This document shows, piece after piece, positions 20,824-23,956 of a stretch of 64,000 bases of DNA. The notes beneath the pieces were generated by a model, which made no database searches, was not told where the DNA came from, and worked only from the letters and a program-made list of their open reading frames with translations. Numbering within the stretch: the first letter of the stretch is position 1; each line of letters opens with the position of its first letter. Made by a program: the position numbers and the translations under genes. The DNA comes from a virus. Taxonomy: Duplodnaviria; Caudoviricetes. The DNA is taken from positions 128,001 through 192,000 of IMG/VR virus record IMGVR_UViG_3300035696_000004. The stretch is one strand, 5' to 3'.

Positions 20824-21282
20824 TTACTCGTAAATCTCGATTTCCATCGGCAAATCATCCAGCCACTTCACCATCAACTCCTTCACACCACCCCATCCGA
20901 GTTTCCCCTTACCGCAGCCAAGTCTAGGAAATGCAATTCGTTCCACTCCCCAGAATCGCCAGAGTCGACAAAACTCCTGAAGACCTTCATCAATGTATTC
21001 CATCTTGGATGGATTTCTCCAATCCACCTTTGTTGGAAAGAGCAAGATACGTTTACCGTTCCACGTTGCCTGACTGGTCACCATGATACAGCGTAACGTT
21101 TCATCGCCATTGCGAAAGTTGTTGATGTTGCAGAAGCCTTTATAGATCGCCTCCAGTCCATCGTACCGCTGTTTAAAAGCGAGGGCGAGTCCGTTACCCA
21201 TAGTCCCGACAATGTTGACAGGTACGACCAATACATCCATGTTGGATTGGAAGATGTCTCCATTGGGGACAAAGGTAATCAT
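20824..21282 (-). CDS. DarG/TARG1-like macrodomain (ADP-ribosyl glycohydrolase)
   Basis: GDIF...VNIVGTMGNGLALAFK, FPTKVDWRNPSKMEYIDEGL, IAFPRLGCGKGKLGW: the full DarG-type macro signature. Confidence 0.85.
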   Translation of the reverse strand: MITFVPNGDIFQSNMDVLVVPVNIVGTMGNGLALAFKQRYDGLEAIYKGFCNINNFRNGDETLRCIMVTSQATWNGKRILLFPTKVDWRNPSKMEYIDEGLQEFCRLWRFWGVERIAFPRLGCGKGKLGWGGVKELMVKWLDDLPMEIEIYE

Positions 21283-21668
21283 CTCTGCTGCTCCAGTTTC
21301 TTCTGTAGGGCTGCAAAGGCCGAGGCCTCCTTATCGATCTTCTCTTGCTTGACCAAACTGATGCGCATGATCTCCTCCACGATATACGTGGGTTGAGCAA
21401 GGAGTTCGAAAATAGAGCACCCGAACTTCTCCGCGACTTTCCGTTCTTCGAACTGTGCTATTCTGTCGAACAGAGGGGATATCTTGACAGTGTCCTCGCA
21501 GTCATGATGCGCGACCACTTTCATGGTGTGCGGATCCCTGTCGTTGATGTGGTCGTAGATCCCGTAATCGGTATCGTACTTCTCAGCCATGTACAATCTG
21601 GCATCCGTAGACACGAGATTCACATTGCTGATATCGAAGGCACGAGATAGCTCGGCTTGATGATTCAC
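21279..21668 (-). CDS. Conserved protein, probably also the -1 frameshift extension of the upstream gene (tail/baseplate chaperone T-like)
   Basis: GTG start with weak RBS; its frame stays open back through a T8 run in the upstream gene. Confidence 0.65.
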   Translation of the reverse strand: MNHQAELSRAFDISNVNLVSTDARLYMAEKYDTDYGIYDHINDRDPHTMKVVAHHDCEDTVKISPLFDRIAQFEERKVAEKFGCSIFELLAQPTYIVEEIMRISLVKQEKIDKEASAFAALQKKLEQQR

Positions 21669-21712
21669 CTTGCTTCCGAATAAAGGATCTATTGCGTGCT
21701 GACCACCCCCTT

Positions 21713-23329
21713 TTAGCGTAGGTAGATTCTCTCCGCCGCCTGTTCGACCAGGATAAAAAAAACGCTCACAGCATCGATCGGGACCAGGTGCGGATGGCGC
21801 GGAAGCTTGTTCTCTTCCCGTTCATCTACCGACGGAACAGCGATGACGGAGTAGCAGGTGTCGTCGATGAAATCCCGTACACCATCGAAGAACTTTTCAC
21901 GAGCCTCGTCGTTCGAACTGAGTTCCGACAGGACATTGTTGATGTCTTCGCGGGACTCAATCACCCCGTTGCCAACTTCGATCGACGCAACAAAGTGCGC
22001 GTAATCGCGCATGATTGTCGCTTGACCTTGGCGCCAGATGTATCGGTTGCGTTCGTCGGGGTCTTGTTGCAGACCGAAGGCACGATCGACCATCGTAACG
22101 ATGCCGTCCACCCACTGCTGACCGCTGTCGAGGTGTTCGCGAATGGACGGGCTCTTCAAGTTAATGGAGAGCACTTCGTTCAGTTCGAGCTTACGACCCT
22201 TGTCGAGGGCAAACTCGTCGCGATACTTCTGGATCGATGCCAGAGTCATGGAGCCGGACGTACGCTGGCTCATGTGTTGCTTCTGCCATTTCGTCAGCGA
22301 ATTGCTGTCGGTCCATTGGAGACGACCCAGTGCTACCATTTCTTTGACGGTATAGTCCACCTTCCCGCCTTCACCCAGGATGGAGCGGCTGTATTGGAAG
22401 CCGTTCGGGTAGATAGCGAGTGCAAAGCCCCACGCCAGATGCTGGAGATCCTGAGCCGTGATCAAGTCCAGAACCGCAGCACCTTGCTTTTCTTTGATCG
22501 TCGTATCGAAGATATGTTCGATCACCGTCTGGACGAGGATGTTAGCGATGAACACACCCATGTTCGAGAACACGGCACCGTTGGTCATGCGACCGAGACG
22601 GATCTTCTCATCCGCGATGCGGCGCTCCATCTCGAGTACGGTACTGTCACTCGGGGTCTTGAGGGTCAGCCAGAAACCCGAATGCCACAACGGGATCTGT
22701 ACGACGCCCCCAAGACCGATGGATTGACGAACACGCATGACGGCGGCTTCACCGGTGAGCTTGTTGTCGTCACCGACGAAGTTGACCTTGGGAGGCGCTG
22801 CCCGCATGCGGCCGGCTTCACCTTCGACGTATTGGAGCCATCTCGAATCTTCACGATCGACGGAAGCCGTAAAGCTTTCCTTGTCCGGAAGCCCCGGAGA
22901 GATTCGGAAACCTTCCTGGAGAGTCTGCATCCACTCTTGGCCGGGCTCAACGTTGGGGCGTTGTTCGGCTTTTCGTTGGACATCGACACGTCGACCACTC
23001 GGCAGCACCAGCGTAATGGCGTCTTCGTTCCACTTCTTGCCTTCGGCGAGAGGGATCAAACACGCGTAATCTTCTTGCGTGGTTTTGGAGTCCGTTTGTT
23101 CGATCACCGGTGCGGTGATATCGATGGATTCCTCGTCATCCTGGGGACTGGGAATGACAGGCATTTCGGCTTCTGGGAGTTCCGACACCAGTCGACCACG
23201 ACCATGGTGTCCGTGGTGTGCAGGGGTCTCGGGGCCTGGGTCTTCAGCCTTGCTGGGTTCTTGCGCACTCGATACGAGCGTGATCTCGGGGGCTTCGCCG
23301 AATTCATCCTGGCGATCGGTCTCTTCCAT
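21713..23329 (-). CDS. Conserved chimallivirus protein, putative tail/baseplate assembly chaperone (G-like)
   Basis: 538 aa; acidic disordered N-terminus; QIPLWHSGFWLTLKTP motif; AAGGAG RBS. Function inferred. Confidence 0.6.
   Translation of the reverse strand: MEETDRQDEFGEAPEITLVSSAQEPSKAEDPGPETPAHHGHHGRGRLVSELPEAEMPVIPSPQDDEESIDITAPVIEQTDSKTTQEDYACLIPLAEGKKWNEDAITLVLPSGRRVDVQRKAEQRPNVEPGQEWMQTLQEGFRISPGLPDKESFTASVDREDSRWLQYVEGEAGRMRAAPPKVNFVGDDNKLTGEAAVMRVRQSIGLGGVVQIPLWHSGFWLTLKTPSDSTVLEMERRIADEKIRLGRMTNGAVFSNMGVFIANILVQTVIEHIFDTTIKEKQGAAVLDLITAQDLQHLAWGFALAIYPNGFQYSRSILGEGGKVDYTVKEMVALGRLQWTDSNSLTKWQKQHMSQRTSGSMTLASIQKYRDEFALDKGRKLELNEVLSINLKSPSIREHLDSGQQWVDGIVTMVDRAFGLQQDPDERNRYIWRQGQATIMRDYAHFVASIEVGNGVIESREDINNVLSELSSNDEAREKFFDGVRDFIDDTCYSVIAVPSVDEREENKLPRHPHLVPIDAVSVFFILVEQAAERIYLR
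21755..21763 (-). other. Candidate -1 programmed frameshift slippery site (U UUU UUU)
   Basis: G-TT-TTT-TTT-ATC near the end of the 538-aa ORF; the -1 frame is open and joins 21279..21668. Confidence 0.6.
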
Positions 23330-23335
23330 GTTTTG

Positions 23336-23911
23336 TTACTCCTTGTTTTCAGCAGCCGGCACGTCTTGTGCGGATTCGGTTTCGGGTTTTGCTTCTTCGG
23401 CAGGTTCCGTGAAGCGCTTGACCGGGTCGATGCCGGCTTCGACGTCTTCGACGATCTGGGTAAGCGCTTTGAGACGCAGCTCCGCCGCATTCGTTTGTTC
23501 GAGGATGTGATTGACCGTCGGGGTCAGGACGGATTCCGCCTTCAGGGCGAAGGCGCTGTAGAGTTCCAGAATCTGGAAGGGCACGGTGGAGAAGACTTCT
23601 TCCATCGTCGTGTCACGGCGACCGTATTCTTTGTGTTGGTCGTAGATTTGGTTGAGCTCAAGCGCCATGGATTCGATGTCACGACGCAGGGTGCGGACGT
23701 TGATCAGGAACGTGGCCCCGTCGGCGATTTGTGCGATCAACTCTTTGCGATTCAGCACGATGCCGAGGGCGCTTTGGGACGCCAGACCCAGCGAACATTT
23801 CTTGTACATGTCGTCCAGGTCGCGCCACAGATCACGGCTTTGCGATTCAGCGAGGTCCGCTTTTTTCTTCTGTTCGTCACGCTCCATGCGGTTCAGCGAT
23901 TTCTTGGTCAT
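23336..23911 (-). CDS. Conserved hypothetical helical protein
   Basis: 191 aa; GGAGAG RBS. Confidence 0.7.
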   Translation of the reverse strand: MTKKSLNRMERDEQKKKADLAESQSRDLWRDLDDMYKKCSLGLASQSALGIVLNRKELIAQIADGATFLINVRTLRRDIESMALELNQIYDQHKEYGRRDTTMEEVFSTVPFQILELYSAFALKAESVLTPTVNHILEQTNAAELRLKALTQIVEDVEAGIDPVKRFTEPAEEAKPETESAQDVPAAENKE

Positions 23912-23928
23912 TCTTCTCTCCAGGCGAT

Positions 23929-23956
23929 GTGAAATAGGTATCTTAAATGAGAATAC
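23929..23956 (-). promoter_or_regulatory. Possible degenerate copy of the early-type promoter
   Basis: Plus strand GTGAAATAGGT...AGAAT resembles the 55118 copy; lies in a divergent intergenic region. Confidence 0.35.

What the first reader, a model, noticed from the sequence alone, without database searches (positions are those of the whole stretch)
21279..23329. Candidate -1 programmed frameshift fusing a 538-aa and a 129-aa core gene (lambda G/GT-like)
Seen: 13 codons before its stop the 538-aa ORF reads GTT TTT TTT ATC (T8 at 21755-21762, heptamer U UUU UUU). The -1 frame is open from the stop at 21822-24 through the slip site for 31 codons (FFYPGRTGGGENLPTLKGGGQHAIDPLFGSK) directly into the GTG of 21279..21668, which has only a weak RBS. 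A small CCTG-gtcgaa-CAGG hairpin follows the site. Established: tailed phages make tail chaperones G and GT by -1 frameshifting. Inference: this pair is the chimallivirus equivalent, giving a ~540-aa and a ~685-aa product. I do not recall this being described for phiKZ-like phages.
Basis: partly seen in the sequence, partly recalled or inferred. Interest (0 to 1): 0.8.

Follow-up and report, generated by a model that had tools for sequence, protein, structure and literature searches.

The report
Conserved -1 frameshift in jumbo-phage gene
A run of eight T's near the end of a core gene (the phiKZ gp77 homologue) of this uncultured nucleus-forming giant phage very probably makes some ribosomes slip back one base, so that one gene yields a 538-residue and a 683-residue protein; the same unannotated signal is kept in every relative examined, and the protein's fold resembles the phage T4 baseplate-hub assembly chaperones gp26/gp51.

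Summary
On the minus strand, the 538-codon ORF (23329..21713) reads GTT TTT TTT ATC (T8 at 21762..21755). The -1 frame is open from 21821 through the run into the "129-aa gene".

I examined 73 related loci (19 GenBank phages, 54 IMG/VR contigs; proteins 21-44% identical):
- 72 have a T5-T8 run at the same invariant Phe-Phe.
- In those 72 the 0 frame stops 7-39 codons later, and the -1 frame stays open for 149-191 codons.
- The one exception, RTH11, has lost one T from the run.
- 57 of 69 distinct sites are T_TTT_TTY; all 69 keep T_TTY at the A site.
- 54 of 61 have no ATG/GTG/TTG before a conserved His..Pro.Phe-Gly motif. In the window that motif lies upstream of the GTG.

"ORF2" is therefore the C-terminal extension of a 683-aa long form. 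It is most likely made by ribosomal -1 frameshifting; transcriptional slippage is the main rival.

By predicted fold the protein is not a lambda G/GT relative.

I found no paper describing this. This scan has already reported the same frameshift on other genomes, including phiKZ and Goslar-like phages.

The parts
21713..23329 (-). ORF1, the 0-frame product (short form, 538 aa). It is the homologue of phiKZ gp077, PhiPA3 gp074 and 201phi2-1 gp136, and belongs to phrog_4585. Residues 1-79 are predicted disordered; 80-538 are folded.
   Evidence: AF2 model pLDDT 81, pTM 0.80
21755..21761 (-). Slippery heptamer T_TTT_TTT inside the T8 run at 21755-21762. Phe524 is the P-site codon and Phe525 the A-site codon.
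   Evidence: Conserved as T_TTT_TTY in 57 of 69 distinct orthologous sites, and as T_TTY at the A site in all 69
21716..21754 (-). 0-frame tail of 13 codons (ILVEQAAERIYLR) that only the short form carries. It completes the C-terminal helix. The stop codon is at 21713-21715.
   Evidence: tail pattern x-L-L-x-Q-K/R-x-x-x-I-x-x-R conserved; helix 520-537 at pLDDT about 93
21279..21761 (-). -1-frame reading of 160 codons plus stop, giving the C-terminal extension of the 683-aa long form. It comprises a flexible Gly-rich linker, the conserved H-x-x-x-P-x-F-G motif and a helical domain that ends in a 35-residue helix.
   Evidence: AF2 pLDDT 84
21675..21698 (-). Conserved His..Pro.Phe-Gly motif (HAIDPLFG) in the 'bridge'. 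It lies upstream of the only candidate start codon of 'ORF2'.
   Evidence: His conserved in 53 of 61; 54 of 61 loci have no ATG/GTG/TTG between the run and this His
21279..21668 (-). The '129-aa ORF' as a gene caller sees it (GTG start, weak GGAAG upstream). I read it as the distal part of the extension, not as a gene of its own.
   Evidence: phrog_12109; called N-termini of homologues are ragged, starting at profile positions 1 to 59
21739..21752 (-). It is probably a by-product of the conserved Leu..Gln codons and not a stimulator.
   Evidence: across 67 sites the 60 nt downstream have mean z = -0.54 and share no structure

Best explanation
The 538-codon gene and the downstream '129-aa gene' are one gene with two products.

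Most ribosomes read GTT TTT TTT ATC in frame and terminate 13 codons later. This gives the 538-aa short form, whose last residues complete a C-terminal helix. A minority slip back one base while the two tRNA-Phe sit on TTT TTT (heptamer T_TTT_TTT, 21761-21755). These ribosomes then read Tyr-Pro-Gly-Arg..., a Gly-rich linker, a conserved H..P.FG motif and a 110-residue helical domain, giving a 683-aa long form.

Shown by comparison:
- the site, its phase and the open -1 frame are conserved throughout the Chimalliviridae;
- most orthologues lack any start codon for the downstream part.

Inferred:
- the shift is ribosomal rather than transcriptional;
- its efficiency is unknown;
- both isoforms are needed in a set ratio;
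- the protein acts as a baseplate-hub/tail assembly chaperone, like T4 gp26/gp51, with the long form's extra domain recruiting a further partner, in the way lambda GT does.
For: 1. Layout. In 72 of 73 loci the 0 frame ends 7-39 codons after a T5-T8 run at the invariant Phe-Phe, and the -1 frame runs on for 149-191 codons. The +1 frame shows no such pattern. The loci cover phiKZ-like SL2, PhiPA3, Goslar, SPN3US-like SPFM17, RAY, EL-like GXNNA8, Vibrio VP4B and sm033, Ralstonia, Burkholderia and Xanthomonas phages, and 54 IMG/VR contigs. The exception, RTH11, has T7 where its four relatives have T8. Its downstream part is still in the ancestral -1 frame.

2. Synonymous-site selection. The codon before the P-site codon ends in T in 57 of 69 distinct sites, although it encodes 10 different amino acids (ACT, GTT, ATT, CTT, AGT, TAT, GCT, GGT, AAT, CAT). 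The P-site codon is TTT in 64 of 69. The A-site codon is TTT in 54 and TTC in 15, which is the freedom X_XXY_YYZ allows. In the window TTT is only 33% of Phe codons. T4 gp26 carries the same FF motif as TTC TTT.

3. No independent start. 54 of 61 distinct loci have no ATG/GTG/TTG between the run and the conserved His of H..P.FG. The first start comes at codon 138 of 160 in L026, at 82 in L041 and at 72 in L028. In the window the motif (21698-21675) lies upstream of the GTG.

4. The bridge is conserved as protein in the -1 frame.

5. The shift window is pinned. A -1-frame stop lies 1-2 codons upstream of the shifted A site in six loci (L041, L043, L047, L060, L061, L065). The 0-frame stop lies 8 codons downstream in L055. 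Only the T run lies between them.

6. Gene callers give ragged N-termini and no fused form. There are 1742 cluster representatives; the best 150 are all 97-186 aa and begin at profile positions 1-59.

7. The T8 is reproduced in an independent metagenome assembly.

8. Motif class. H_HH.U_UU.Y heptamers are among the efficient -1 motifs in E. coli, and U_UU.Y is the second-best tetramer (PMC4066793). G_GU-type P sites are used by T7 gene 10 (PMC5009743).

9. Fold. The ORF1 model matches 'baseplate hub assembly chaperone/protein, T4-like' entries in BFVD at E 4e-4 to 1e-2, probability 0.97-1.0, TM by target 0.42-0.50. It also matches an ESM-Atlas cluster that is 84% PF12322, with TM by target 0.61 over 246 residues. 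T4 gp26 and gp51 are both PF12322. T4 gp26 ends ...CPECGK...FFELL, like the chimallivirus CPxC...FF-T-L-L.
Against: - No trans-frame protein, peptide or ribosome-profiling data were available. All evidence is comparative.
- I found no conserved stimulatory element. The 60 nt downstream have mean z = -0.54 with no common structure, and 34 of 69 sites have no SD-like match upstream. Without a stimulator, U_UUU_UUU is a weak shifter in E. coli (PMC5009743), so efficiency may be low.
- Twelve of 69 sites lack a canonical heptamer: G_TTT_TTY in 7, G_GTT_TTT in 3, A_CTT_TTT in 2.
- A T7-T8 run could also cause RNA polymerase slippage. Sequence alone cannot separate the two.
- The function rests on fold similarity only. 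The PF12322 HMM does not hit the protein or the genome and hit only 1 of 49 relatives, at E 0.008. Profile-profile comparison with a gp26/gp51 alignment is not significant.
- The Churi homologue (gp256 = phiKZ gp077) was listed among proteins detected early in infection (PMC11849849). That fits poorly with a late morphogenetic chaperone.
Confidence: 0.8

Rival explanations
1. Transcriptional slippage. The phage RNA polymerase stutters on the T run and adds one U to a fraction of the mRNAs. Standard translation of those mRNAs then gives the same 683-aa long form.
For: The window has a T8 run, and 10 of 64 loci have T8 while 39 have T7. U7 and A7 runs are avoided in all three frames of E. coli genes, possibly because of transcriptional slippage (PMC4066793). 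The chimallivirus RNA polymerases are unusual and have not been tested for slippage. The lack of any conserved ribosomal stimulator fits a mechanism that needs only the run.
Against: 15 of 64 loci have only T5-T6, which by own knowledge is shorter than the runs known to give useful slippage in bacteria (8-9 or more). Selection acts on the base before the two Phe codons, which is T in 57 of 69 sites. That is the position the tandem-tRNA model specifies. A-site TTC is tolerated in 15 sites, and G_GTT_TTT sites resemble T7 gene 10. No RNA data exist for this phage.
Confidence: 0.1
2. Two separate genes. The downstream ORF is translated on its own, from the GTG at 21668 or by termination-reinitiation after the ORF1 stop, and the shared -1 phase is incidental.
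For: Every database record whose annotation I read lists two genes or leaves the region blank. The window has a GTG with a weak GGAAG upstream. Seven of 61 loci do have a start codon before the conserved motif, for example the RP12 ATG overlapping the ORF1 stop.
Against: The -1 phase and an unbroken -1 frame back to the run occur in 72 of 73 loci, despite many indels in the junction. 54 of 61 have no start codon before the conserved H..P.FG motif, and several have none for 60-138 codons. The called N-termini are ragged. In the window the conserved motif would be cut off by the GTG start.
Confidence: 0.04
3. Artefact or decay. The T8 is a homopolymer sequencing error, or a recent frameshift mutation in what is really a single in-frame gene.
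For: Homopolymers are error-prone. RTH11 differs from its relatives by one T in this very run.
Against: An independent run and study gives the identical sequence. No in-frame fused form was seen in 73 loci, nor among the best 150 of 1742 cluster representatives. The 0-frame tail after the run is conserved and modelled as a confident helix.
Confidence: 0.01

Closest known systems
Phage lambda G/GT, and the conserved -1 frameshift of tail assembly chaperone genes of long-tailed phages (P2 E/E+E', Mu gp41/42); described in PMC5009743
   Same: A -1 shift close to the 3' end of a morphogenesis-type gene gives a short and a C-terminally extended form that share the N-terminal body. The downstream part has no start codon of its own. 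The arrangement is conserved across a whole phage group despite low sequence identity. Databases annotate it as two genes.
   Different: There is no sequence or fold similarity. The short form is 538 aa, not about 140. The gene does not lie between the tube and tape-measure genes. The slippery site is T_TTT_TTY rather than G_GGA_AAG. Binding partners are unknown.
Phage T4 gp26 and gp51, 'gp26 family baseplate hub assembly chaperone' (Pfam PF12322 T4_baseplate)
   Same: The predicted fold matches: TM by target 0.61 over 246 residues against a PF12322 cluster, and Foldseek probability about 1 against several T4-like hub assembly proteins. The C-terminal signature CPxC...FF-x-L-L and an earlier Cys pair are shared. 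T4 gene 26 also makes two products, gp26 and the internal-start 26'.
   Different: The chimallivirus protein is 2.5 times larger and has a disordered N-terminus. It does not reach the PF12322 threshold or hhalign significance. T4 makes its second product by internal initiation, not frameshifting. T4 encodes FF as TTC TTT and the protein ends 3 residues later. The window's protein has lost the four Cys.
Phage T7 gene 10 (10A/10B) -1 frameshift at G_GUU_UUC (PMC5009743)
   Same: The -1 shift happens on a U-rich Phe-codon site near the end of a structural or morphogenetic gene, with no nearby canonical stimulator, and gives a minor C-terminally extended isoform. Three orthologous sites here are G_GTT_TTT.
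   Different: The T7 extension is short (own knowledge) and the gene encodes the capsid protein. Here a 158-residue folded domain is added.
E. coli dnaX tau/gamma
   Same: A conserved bacterial-type -1 heptamer makes two isoforms at a fixed ratio.
   Different: dnaX uses A_AAA_AAG with an upstream SD-like element and a downstream hairpin, and its shifted product is the shorter one. No stimulators were found here, and the shifted product is the longer one.

Membership tests
Programmed -1 ribosomal frameshift site (X_XXY_YYZ type) | Slippery heptamer in phase with the 0 frame | tested here: met
   T_TTT_TTT at 21761-21755. T_TTT_TTY in 57 of 69 distinct orthologous sites, and T_TTY at the A site in all 69
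Programmed -1 ribosomal frameshift site (X_XXY_YYZ type) | -1 frame open from the site into a long downstream coding region, with the 0 frame ending soon after | tested here: met
   Window: 0 frame ends after 13 codons, -1 frame runs 158 further codons. 72 of 73 loci: 0 frame 7-39 codons, -1 frame 149-191 codons
Programmed -1 ribosomal frameshift site (X_XXY_YYZ type) | Site conserved among distant orthologues beyond what the protein sequence requires | tested here: met
   NNT codon before the site in 57 of 69, spread over 10 amino acids; P-site TTT in 64 of 69; window Phe TTT usage 33%; T4 gp26 uses TTC TTT
Programmed -1 ribosomal frameshift site (X_XXY_YYZ type) | Downstream part lacks its own initiation signal | tested here: met
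   54 of 61 loci have no ATG/GTG/TTG before the conserved motif; ragged called N-termini
Programmed -1 ribosomal frameshift site (X_XXY_YYZ type) | Stimulatory element (downstream structure or upstream SD-like sequence) | tested here: inconclusive
   No conserved downstream structure (mean z = -0.54). No SD-like match in 34 of 69 sites. Distant or nascent-peptide stimulators were not tested
Programmed -1 ribosomal frameshift site (X_XXY_YYZ type) | Trans-frame protein detected | not testable with these tools
   No RNA or proteome data for this phage
Lambda G/GT-type tail assembly chaperone | Gene lies between the tail tube (major tail) gene and the tape-measure gene | tested here: not met
   Neighbours are gp078-like, gp079-like, virion RNAP beta, a macro-domain gene and unknown small genes
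Lambda G/GT-type tail assembly chaperone | Small (about 100-150 aa) G-like body with sequence or fold similarity to G/GT, gpE or Mu gp41 | tested here: inconclusive
   The body is 538 aa. No Pfam hit. No such fold among the matches. The only hint is a sub-threshold language-model neighbour of the extension, P2 GpE at score 0.84
Lambda G/GT-type tail assembly chaperone | -1 frameshift near the 3' end giving G and GT-like forms | tested here: met
   Predicted from comparison only
T4 gp26/gp51 baseplate hub assembly chaperone family (Pfam PF12322) | Match to the PF12322 model above its gathering score | tested here: not met
   No hit for P0001. 1 of 49 relatives at E 0.008. No hit in the own genome at E up to 10, though the control genomes also gave no hit
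T4 gp26/gp51 baseplate hub assembly chaperone family (Pfam PF12322) | Shared fold | tested here: met
   ESM-Atlas PF12322 cluster: TM by target 0.61, 246 aligned, rmsd 4.8. BFVD T4-like hub assembly proteins: E 4e-4 to 1e-2, TM by target 0.42-0.50. Both sides are predicted models
T4 gp26/gp51 baseplate hub assembly chaperone family (Pfam PF12322) | Cys pair plus C-terminal CPxC...FF-x-L-L signature | tested here: inconclusive
   Present in 24 of 49 relatives and in T4 gp26. The window protein keeps FF-I-L but has lost all four Cys
T4 gp26/gp51 baseplate hub assembly chaperone family (Pfam PF12322) | Significant profile-profile similarity | tested here: not met
   hhalign of A2 against A4: probability 2%. 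Against T4 gp26 alone: 15% over the C-terminal motif
T4 gp26/gp51 baseplate hub assembly chaperone family (Pfam PF12322) | Required for baseplate hub assembly and absent from the mature virion | not testable with these tools
   Only indirect evidence: the Goslar virion paper does not mention gp81 or gp82, the numbers of Goslar's homologues by RefSeq locus tag, though the paper's own gene numbering was not checked
Transcriptional slippage site | Homopolymer long enough for RNA polymerase slippage (about 8-9 or more, own knowledge), conserved in length | tested here: inconclusive
   T8 in the window, but T5 x7, T6 x8, T7 x39 and T8 x10 among 64 loci. The slippage behaviour of chimallivirus RNAPs is unknown

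The most novel reading that the evidence does not exclude
Every nucleus-forming jumbo phage (Chimalliviridae) makes two isoforms of a core, gp26/gp51-like baseplate-hub assembly chaperone through an unannotated -1 ribosomal frameshift on T_TTT_TTY.

This would be a second, independently evolved case of the 'frameshifted tail chaperone' principle known from lambda G/GT. It occurs in a protein family that has no frameshift in T4, and it appears to work without any local RNA stimulator.
Probability: 0.5. Interest if true: 0.8.

Novelty: new member of a known kind. Interest (0 to 1): 0.7.

Why it matters
- phiKZ-like phages are intensively studied model and therapy-candidate phages. If this is right, all of the 18 annotated relatives' records I read misdescribe a core gene as two genes or leave the extension blank. 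Knock-out, Tn-seq and proteomic results for 'gp77' and its neighbour would need re-reading as results for one gene with two products.
- It gives a first functional lead (hub or tail assembly chaperone) for a core protein of unknown function.
- It suggests that fixing isoform ratios by frameshifting in tail-assembly chaperones evolved more than once.
- It offers a natural, stimulator-poor U-run shift site that works across many hosts (Pseudomonas, Erwinia, Vibrio, Ralstonia and others). That is of interest to people who study recoding.

Tried and rejected
- RNA evidence. No RNA holder is listed for this peat-metagenome phage. Reads were laid on DNA contigs, so T-run heterogeneity in RNA could not be examined.
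- First locus search. The search for related loci with the single protein found nothing. The alignment-based scan worked.
- Downstream stimulator. No shared structure.
- Upstream SD-like stimulator. Not conserved.
- Fused in-frame forms. None turned up in a word-indexed search for longer proteins or among the best 150 of an exhaustive profile search. The other 1592 hits were not inspected.
- Solved structures. No sequence match. No Foldseek match in PDB or Swiss-Prot AFDB for either part. VIA-align best Z values were 5.7 and 5.4, both on generic helices. The extension has no recognisable fold.
- Sequence link to T4 gp26/gp51. hhalign was not significant. The PF12322 search of the own genome was empty.
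- Extension as P2 GpE. This is only a sub-threshold language-model neighbour (0.84) and I did not use it as evidence.
- T4 gene 26. I checked it for the same trick. Its FF is TTC TTT and the stop follows 3 codons later, so no frameshift site is there.
- Literature. No mention of this frameshift in the chimallivirus core-genome paper, a 2026 jumbo-phage review, the Goslar virion structure paper or the 2016 recoding review.
- Complex prediction was not used, because this report claims no specific binding pair.
Full report
**Observation**

On the minus strand, ORF1 (23329..21713, 538 aa) ends with ...AGC GTT TTT TTT ATC CTG GTC GAA CAG..., followed by a TAA stop at 21715-21713. The T8 run is at 21762..21755. 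In frame 0 it reads Val-Phe-Phe, so the heptamer T_TTT_TTT (21761-21755) is in the X_XXY_YYZ phase.

The -1 frame has a stop at 21824-21822. It is then open through the run and reads FFYPGRTGGGENLPTLKGGGQHAIDPLFGSK into the GTG at 21668. It continues to the TGA at 21281-21279. The long form would be 683 aa.

The window comes from a complete 219,772-bp phage genome with terminal repeats, recovered from peat metagenomes. A contig from a second, independent run and study is identical across 21200-22233, so the T8 is not an assembly slip.

**What the gene is**

ORF1 belongs to phrog_4585 and the downstream ORF to phrog_12109. Neither has a Pfam hit. tblastn finds ORF1 homologues in 216 phage records, all jumbo phages of the phiKZ type. 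PhiPA3's annotation equates its homologue with phiKZ gp077, 201phi2-1 gp136 and EL gp47, and the downstream ORF with 201phi2-1 gp135.

**Comparative test**

I fetched 19 GenBank loci and 61 IMG/VR loci found with a protein alignment. The C-terminus could be located in 73 of these loci, counting the window.

- *Layout.* In 72 of the 73 there is a T5-T8 run at an invariant Phe-Phe. The 0 frame stops 7-39 codons later and the -1 frame is open for 149-191 codons. Proteins are only 21-44% identical to the window's and the junctions differ by many indels, so the constant -1 phase is not inherited by default.
- *The exception.* Xanthomonas phage RTH11 has T7 where its four closest relatives have T8. 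Its annotated ORF1 therefore runs on in the third frame. Its downstream part is still in the ancestral -1 frame.
- *Heptamers.* Among 69 distinct sites (RTH11 left out) the heptamer is T_TTT_TTT in 44, T_TTT_TTC in 13, G_TTT_TTY in 7, G_GTT_TTT in 3 and A_CTT_TTT in 2. All keep T_TTY at the A site.
- *Synonymous sites.* The codon before the P-site codon ends in T in 57 of 69, although it encodes ten different amino acids. The P-site codon is TTT in 64 of 69. The A-site codon is free to be TTT (54) or TTC (15). The window's own usage is 33% TTT for Phe and 24% GTT for Val. T4 gp26 encodes the homologous FF as TTC TTT.

**The downstream part is not a gene of its own**

- Aligning the -1-frame readings from the run onward shows a conserved H-V-x-x-P-x-F-G motif about 20 residues after the run, then a conserved domain.
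- In 54 of 61 distinct loci there is no ATG, GTG or TTG between the run and that His. In some loci the first possible start comes at codon 63-138 of about 160.
- In the window the motif (21698-21675) lies upstream of the GTG.
- An exhaustive profile search found 1742 cluster representatives. The best 150 are all 97-186 aa, and their called N-termini begin anywhere from profile position 1 to 59. That is what gene callers produce on a startless ORF. No in-frame fusion appeared there or in a search restricted to longer proteins.
- -1-frame stops 1-2 codons upstream of the shifted A site in six loci, and a 0-frame stop 8 codons downstream in another, leave only the T run as the common place where the frame can change.

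**Mechanism**

I favour ribosomal -1 frameshifting at about 0.8.
- The site is in the tandem-slip phase.
- Selection acts on the base that the model specifies.
- T5-T6 variants persist; by own knowledge these are too short for known transcriptional slippage.
- The non-canonical variants match precedents. G_GU-type P sites are used in T7 gene 10, and U_UU.Y is the second-best A-site tetramer in E. coli. H_HH.U_UU.Y heptamers are among the efficient ones (PMC4066793; PMC5009743).

Against a strong shift:
- I found no conserved downstream structure (mean z = -0.54 over 67 sites) and no conserved upstream SD-like element.
- U_UUU_UUU alone is a modest shifter in E. coli.

Transcriptional slippage remains a live rival at about 0.1, or a contributor, especially at T8 runs.

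**Products and function**

AlphaFold2, run with a 49-sequence alignment, gives a confident model of the short form (pLDDT 81, pTM 0.80). Residues 1-79 are disordered, followed by an alpha/beta body. A C-terminal helix spans 520-537, and the frameshift would cut it at Phe525. The 160-residue -1 reading models as a flexible linker plus a helical domain ending in a 35-residue helix (pLDDT 84).

Neither part matches a solved structure or Swiss-Prot model. In the viral model library the short form matches its chimallivirus orthologues and then a series of 245-290-aa 'baseplate hub assembly chaperone/protein, T4-like' entries (E 4e-4 to 1e-2, probability 0.97-1.0, TM by target 0.42-0.50). In the ESM Atlas the only named family among the 99 nearest models is PF12322 T4_baseplate (TM by target 0.61 over 246 residues).

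T4 gp26 and gp51 are both PF12322. T4 gp26 ends ...CPECGK...FFELL, which mirrors the chimallivirus CPxC...FF-T-L-L. Both families have an earlier Cys pair. Sequence-level tests fail. I therefore call this a fold-level relationship and not established membership.

The gene is not in a tube/tape-measure context, so it is not a G/GT family member. The working model is G/GT-like in logic only: both isoforms share the chaperone body, and the rarer long form carries an extra domain for a further partner.

One caveat: Churi gp256, the phiKZ gp077 homologue, was among proteins detected early in infection (PMC11849849).

**Novelty**

None of the 18 annotated relatives' records I read marks a frameshift. 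phiKZ-like SL2 annotates only a 46-aa ORF in the extension. I found no mention in the chimallivirus core-genome paper, a 2026 review of jumbo phages, the Goslar virion structure paper or the 2016 recoding review.

This scan has already reported the same frameshift on other DNA: phiKZ gp77 itself, Goslar-like phages and another uncultured chimallivirus. My tests were run independently and agree. The fold link to T4 gp26/gp51 is something I established here; those notes, as shown to me, do not mention it.

Noticed in passing
L007:2840-3060 (Xanthomonas phage RTH11, OQ790161): The annotated 627-aa ORF1 is an artefact of a T7 run where the relatives LucasX, L044, L051 and L054 have T8. After Phe the protein reads in the third frame (IFLPFSASAP...). 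This is either a sequencing error or a real indel in the slippery run.
   Followed up: partly
ORF1 residues about 317-324 and 502 (window 22360-22380 and about 21825); alignment A2: A four-Cys site (C...C in mid-protein plus CPxC about 30 residues before the FF) is all-or-none. 24 of 49 relatives have all four Cys. 25, including this window, FLC9 and RP12, have lost all four together with the CPxC loop. T4 gp26 has the equivalent CxC plus CPEC. It is probably a structural zinc site that has been lost repeatedly.
   Followed up: partly
window 20824-21282 (-): A macro-domain gene (PF01661) starts at an ATG that overlaps the extension's TGA stop (ATGA at 21282-21279). Goslar also has a macro-domain gene directly after its extension, so the synteny, and perhaps translational coupling, is conserved.
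   Followed up: no
window 21788-23932 (+): A 714-codon ORF runs antisense to ORF1 and the upstream gene. It has no support from homology searches of the sense genes and is most likely a spurious antisense open frame.
   Followed up: no
L072:2803-3300 (Pseudomonas phage SL2, phiKZ-like): The 167-codon extension has its first ATG at codon 87. The record annotates only a 46-aa ORF there, leaving about 320 nt 'non-coding' after gp77.
   Followed up: partly
L075:2436-2984 (Erwinia phage RAY gp266): The RAY record (protein version .2) extends the downstream ORF 135 nt back into gp267, overlapping the T8 run. The annotators evidently saw the long open -1 frame but called it an overlapping gene.
   Followed up: no
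L080:3803-5229 (phage T4 genes 26, 26' and 51): T4 gp26 and gp51 are paralogues; both match PF12322 end to end. Gene 26 has an annotated internal-start product 26'. So two-isoform expression exists in this family by a different route.
   Followed up: partly
window 23336-23911 (-): The upstream gene (191 aa) occupies the position that the gp078 homologue has in PhiPA3. It stops 7 nt before the ORF1 ATG. It has no family or fold lead. It is co-oriented and syntenic in all the relatives' records I read, so it may work with gp77.
   Followed up: partly
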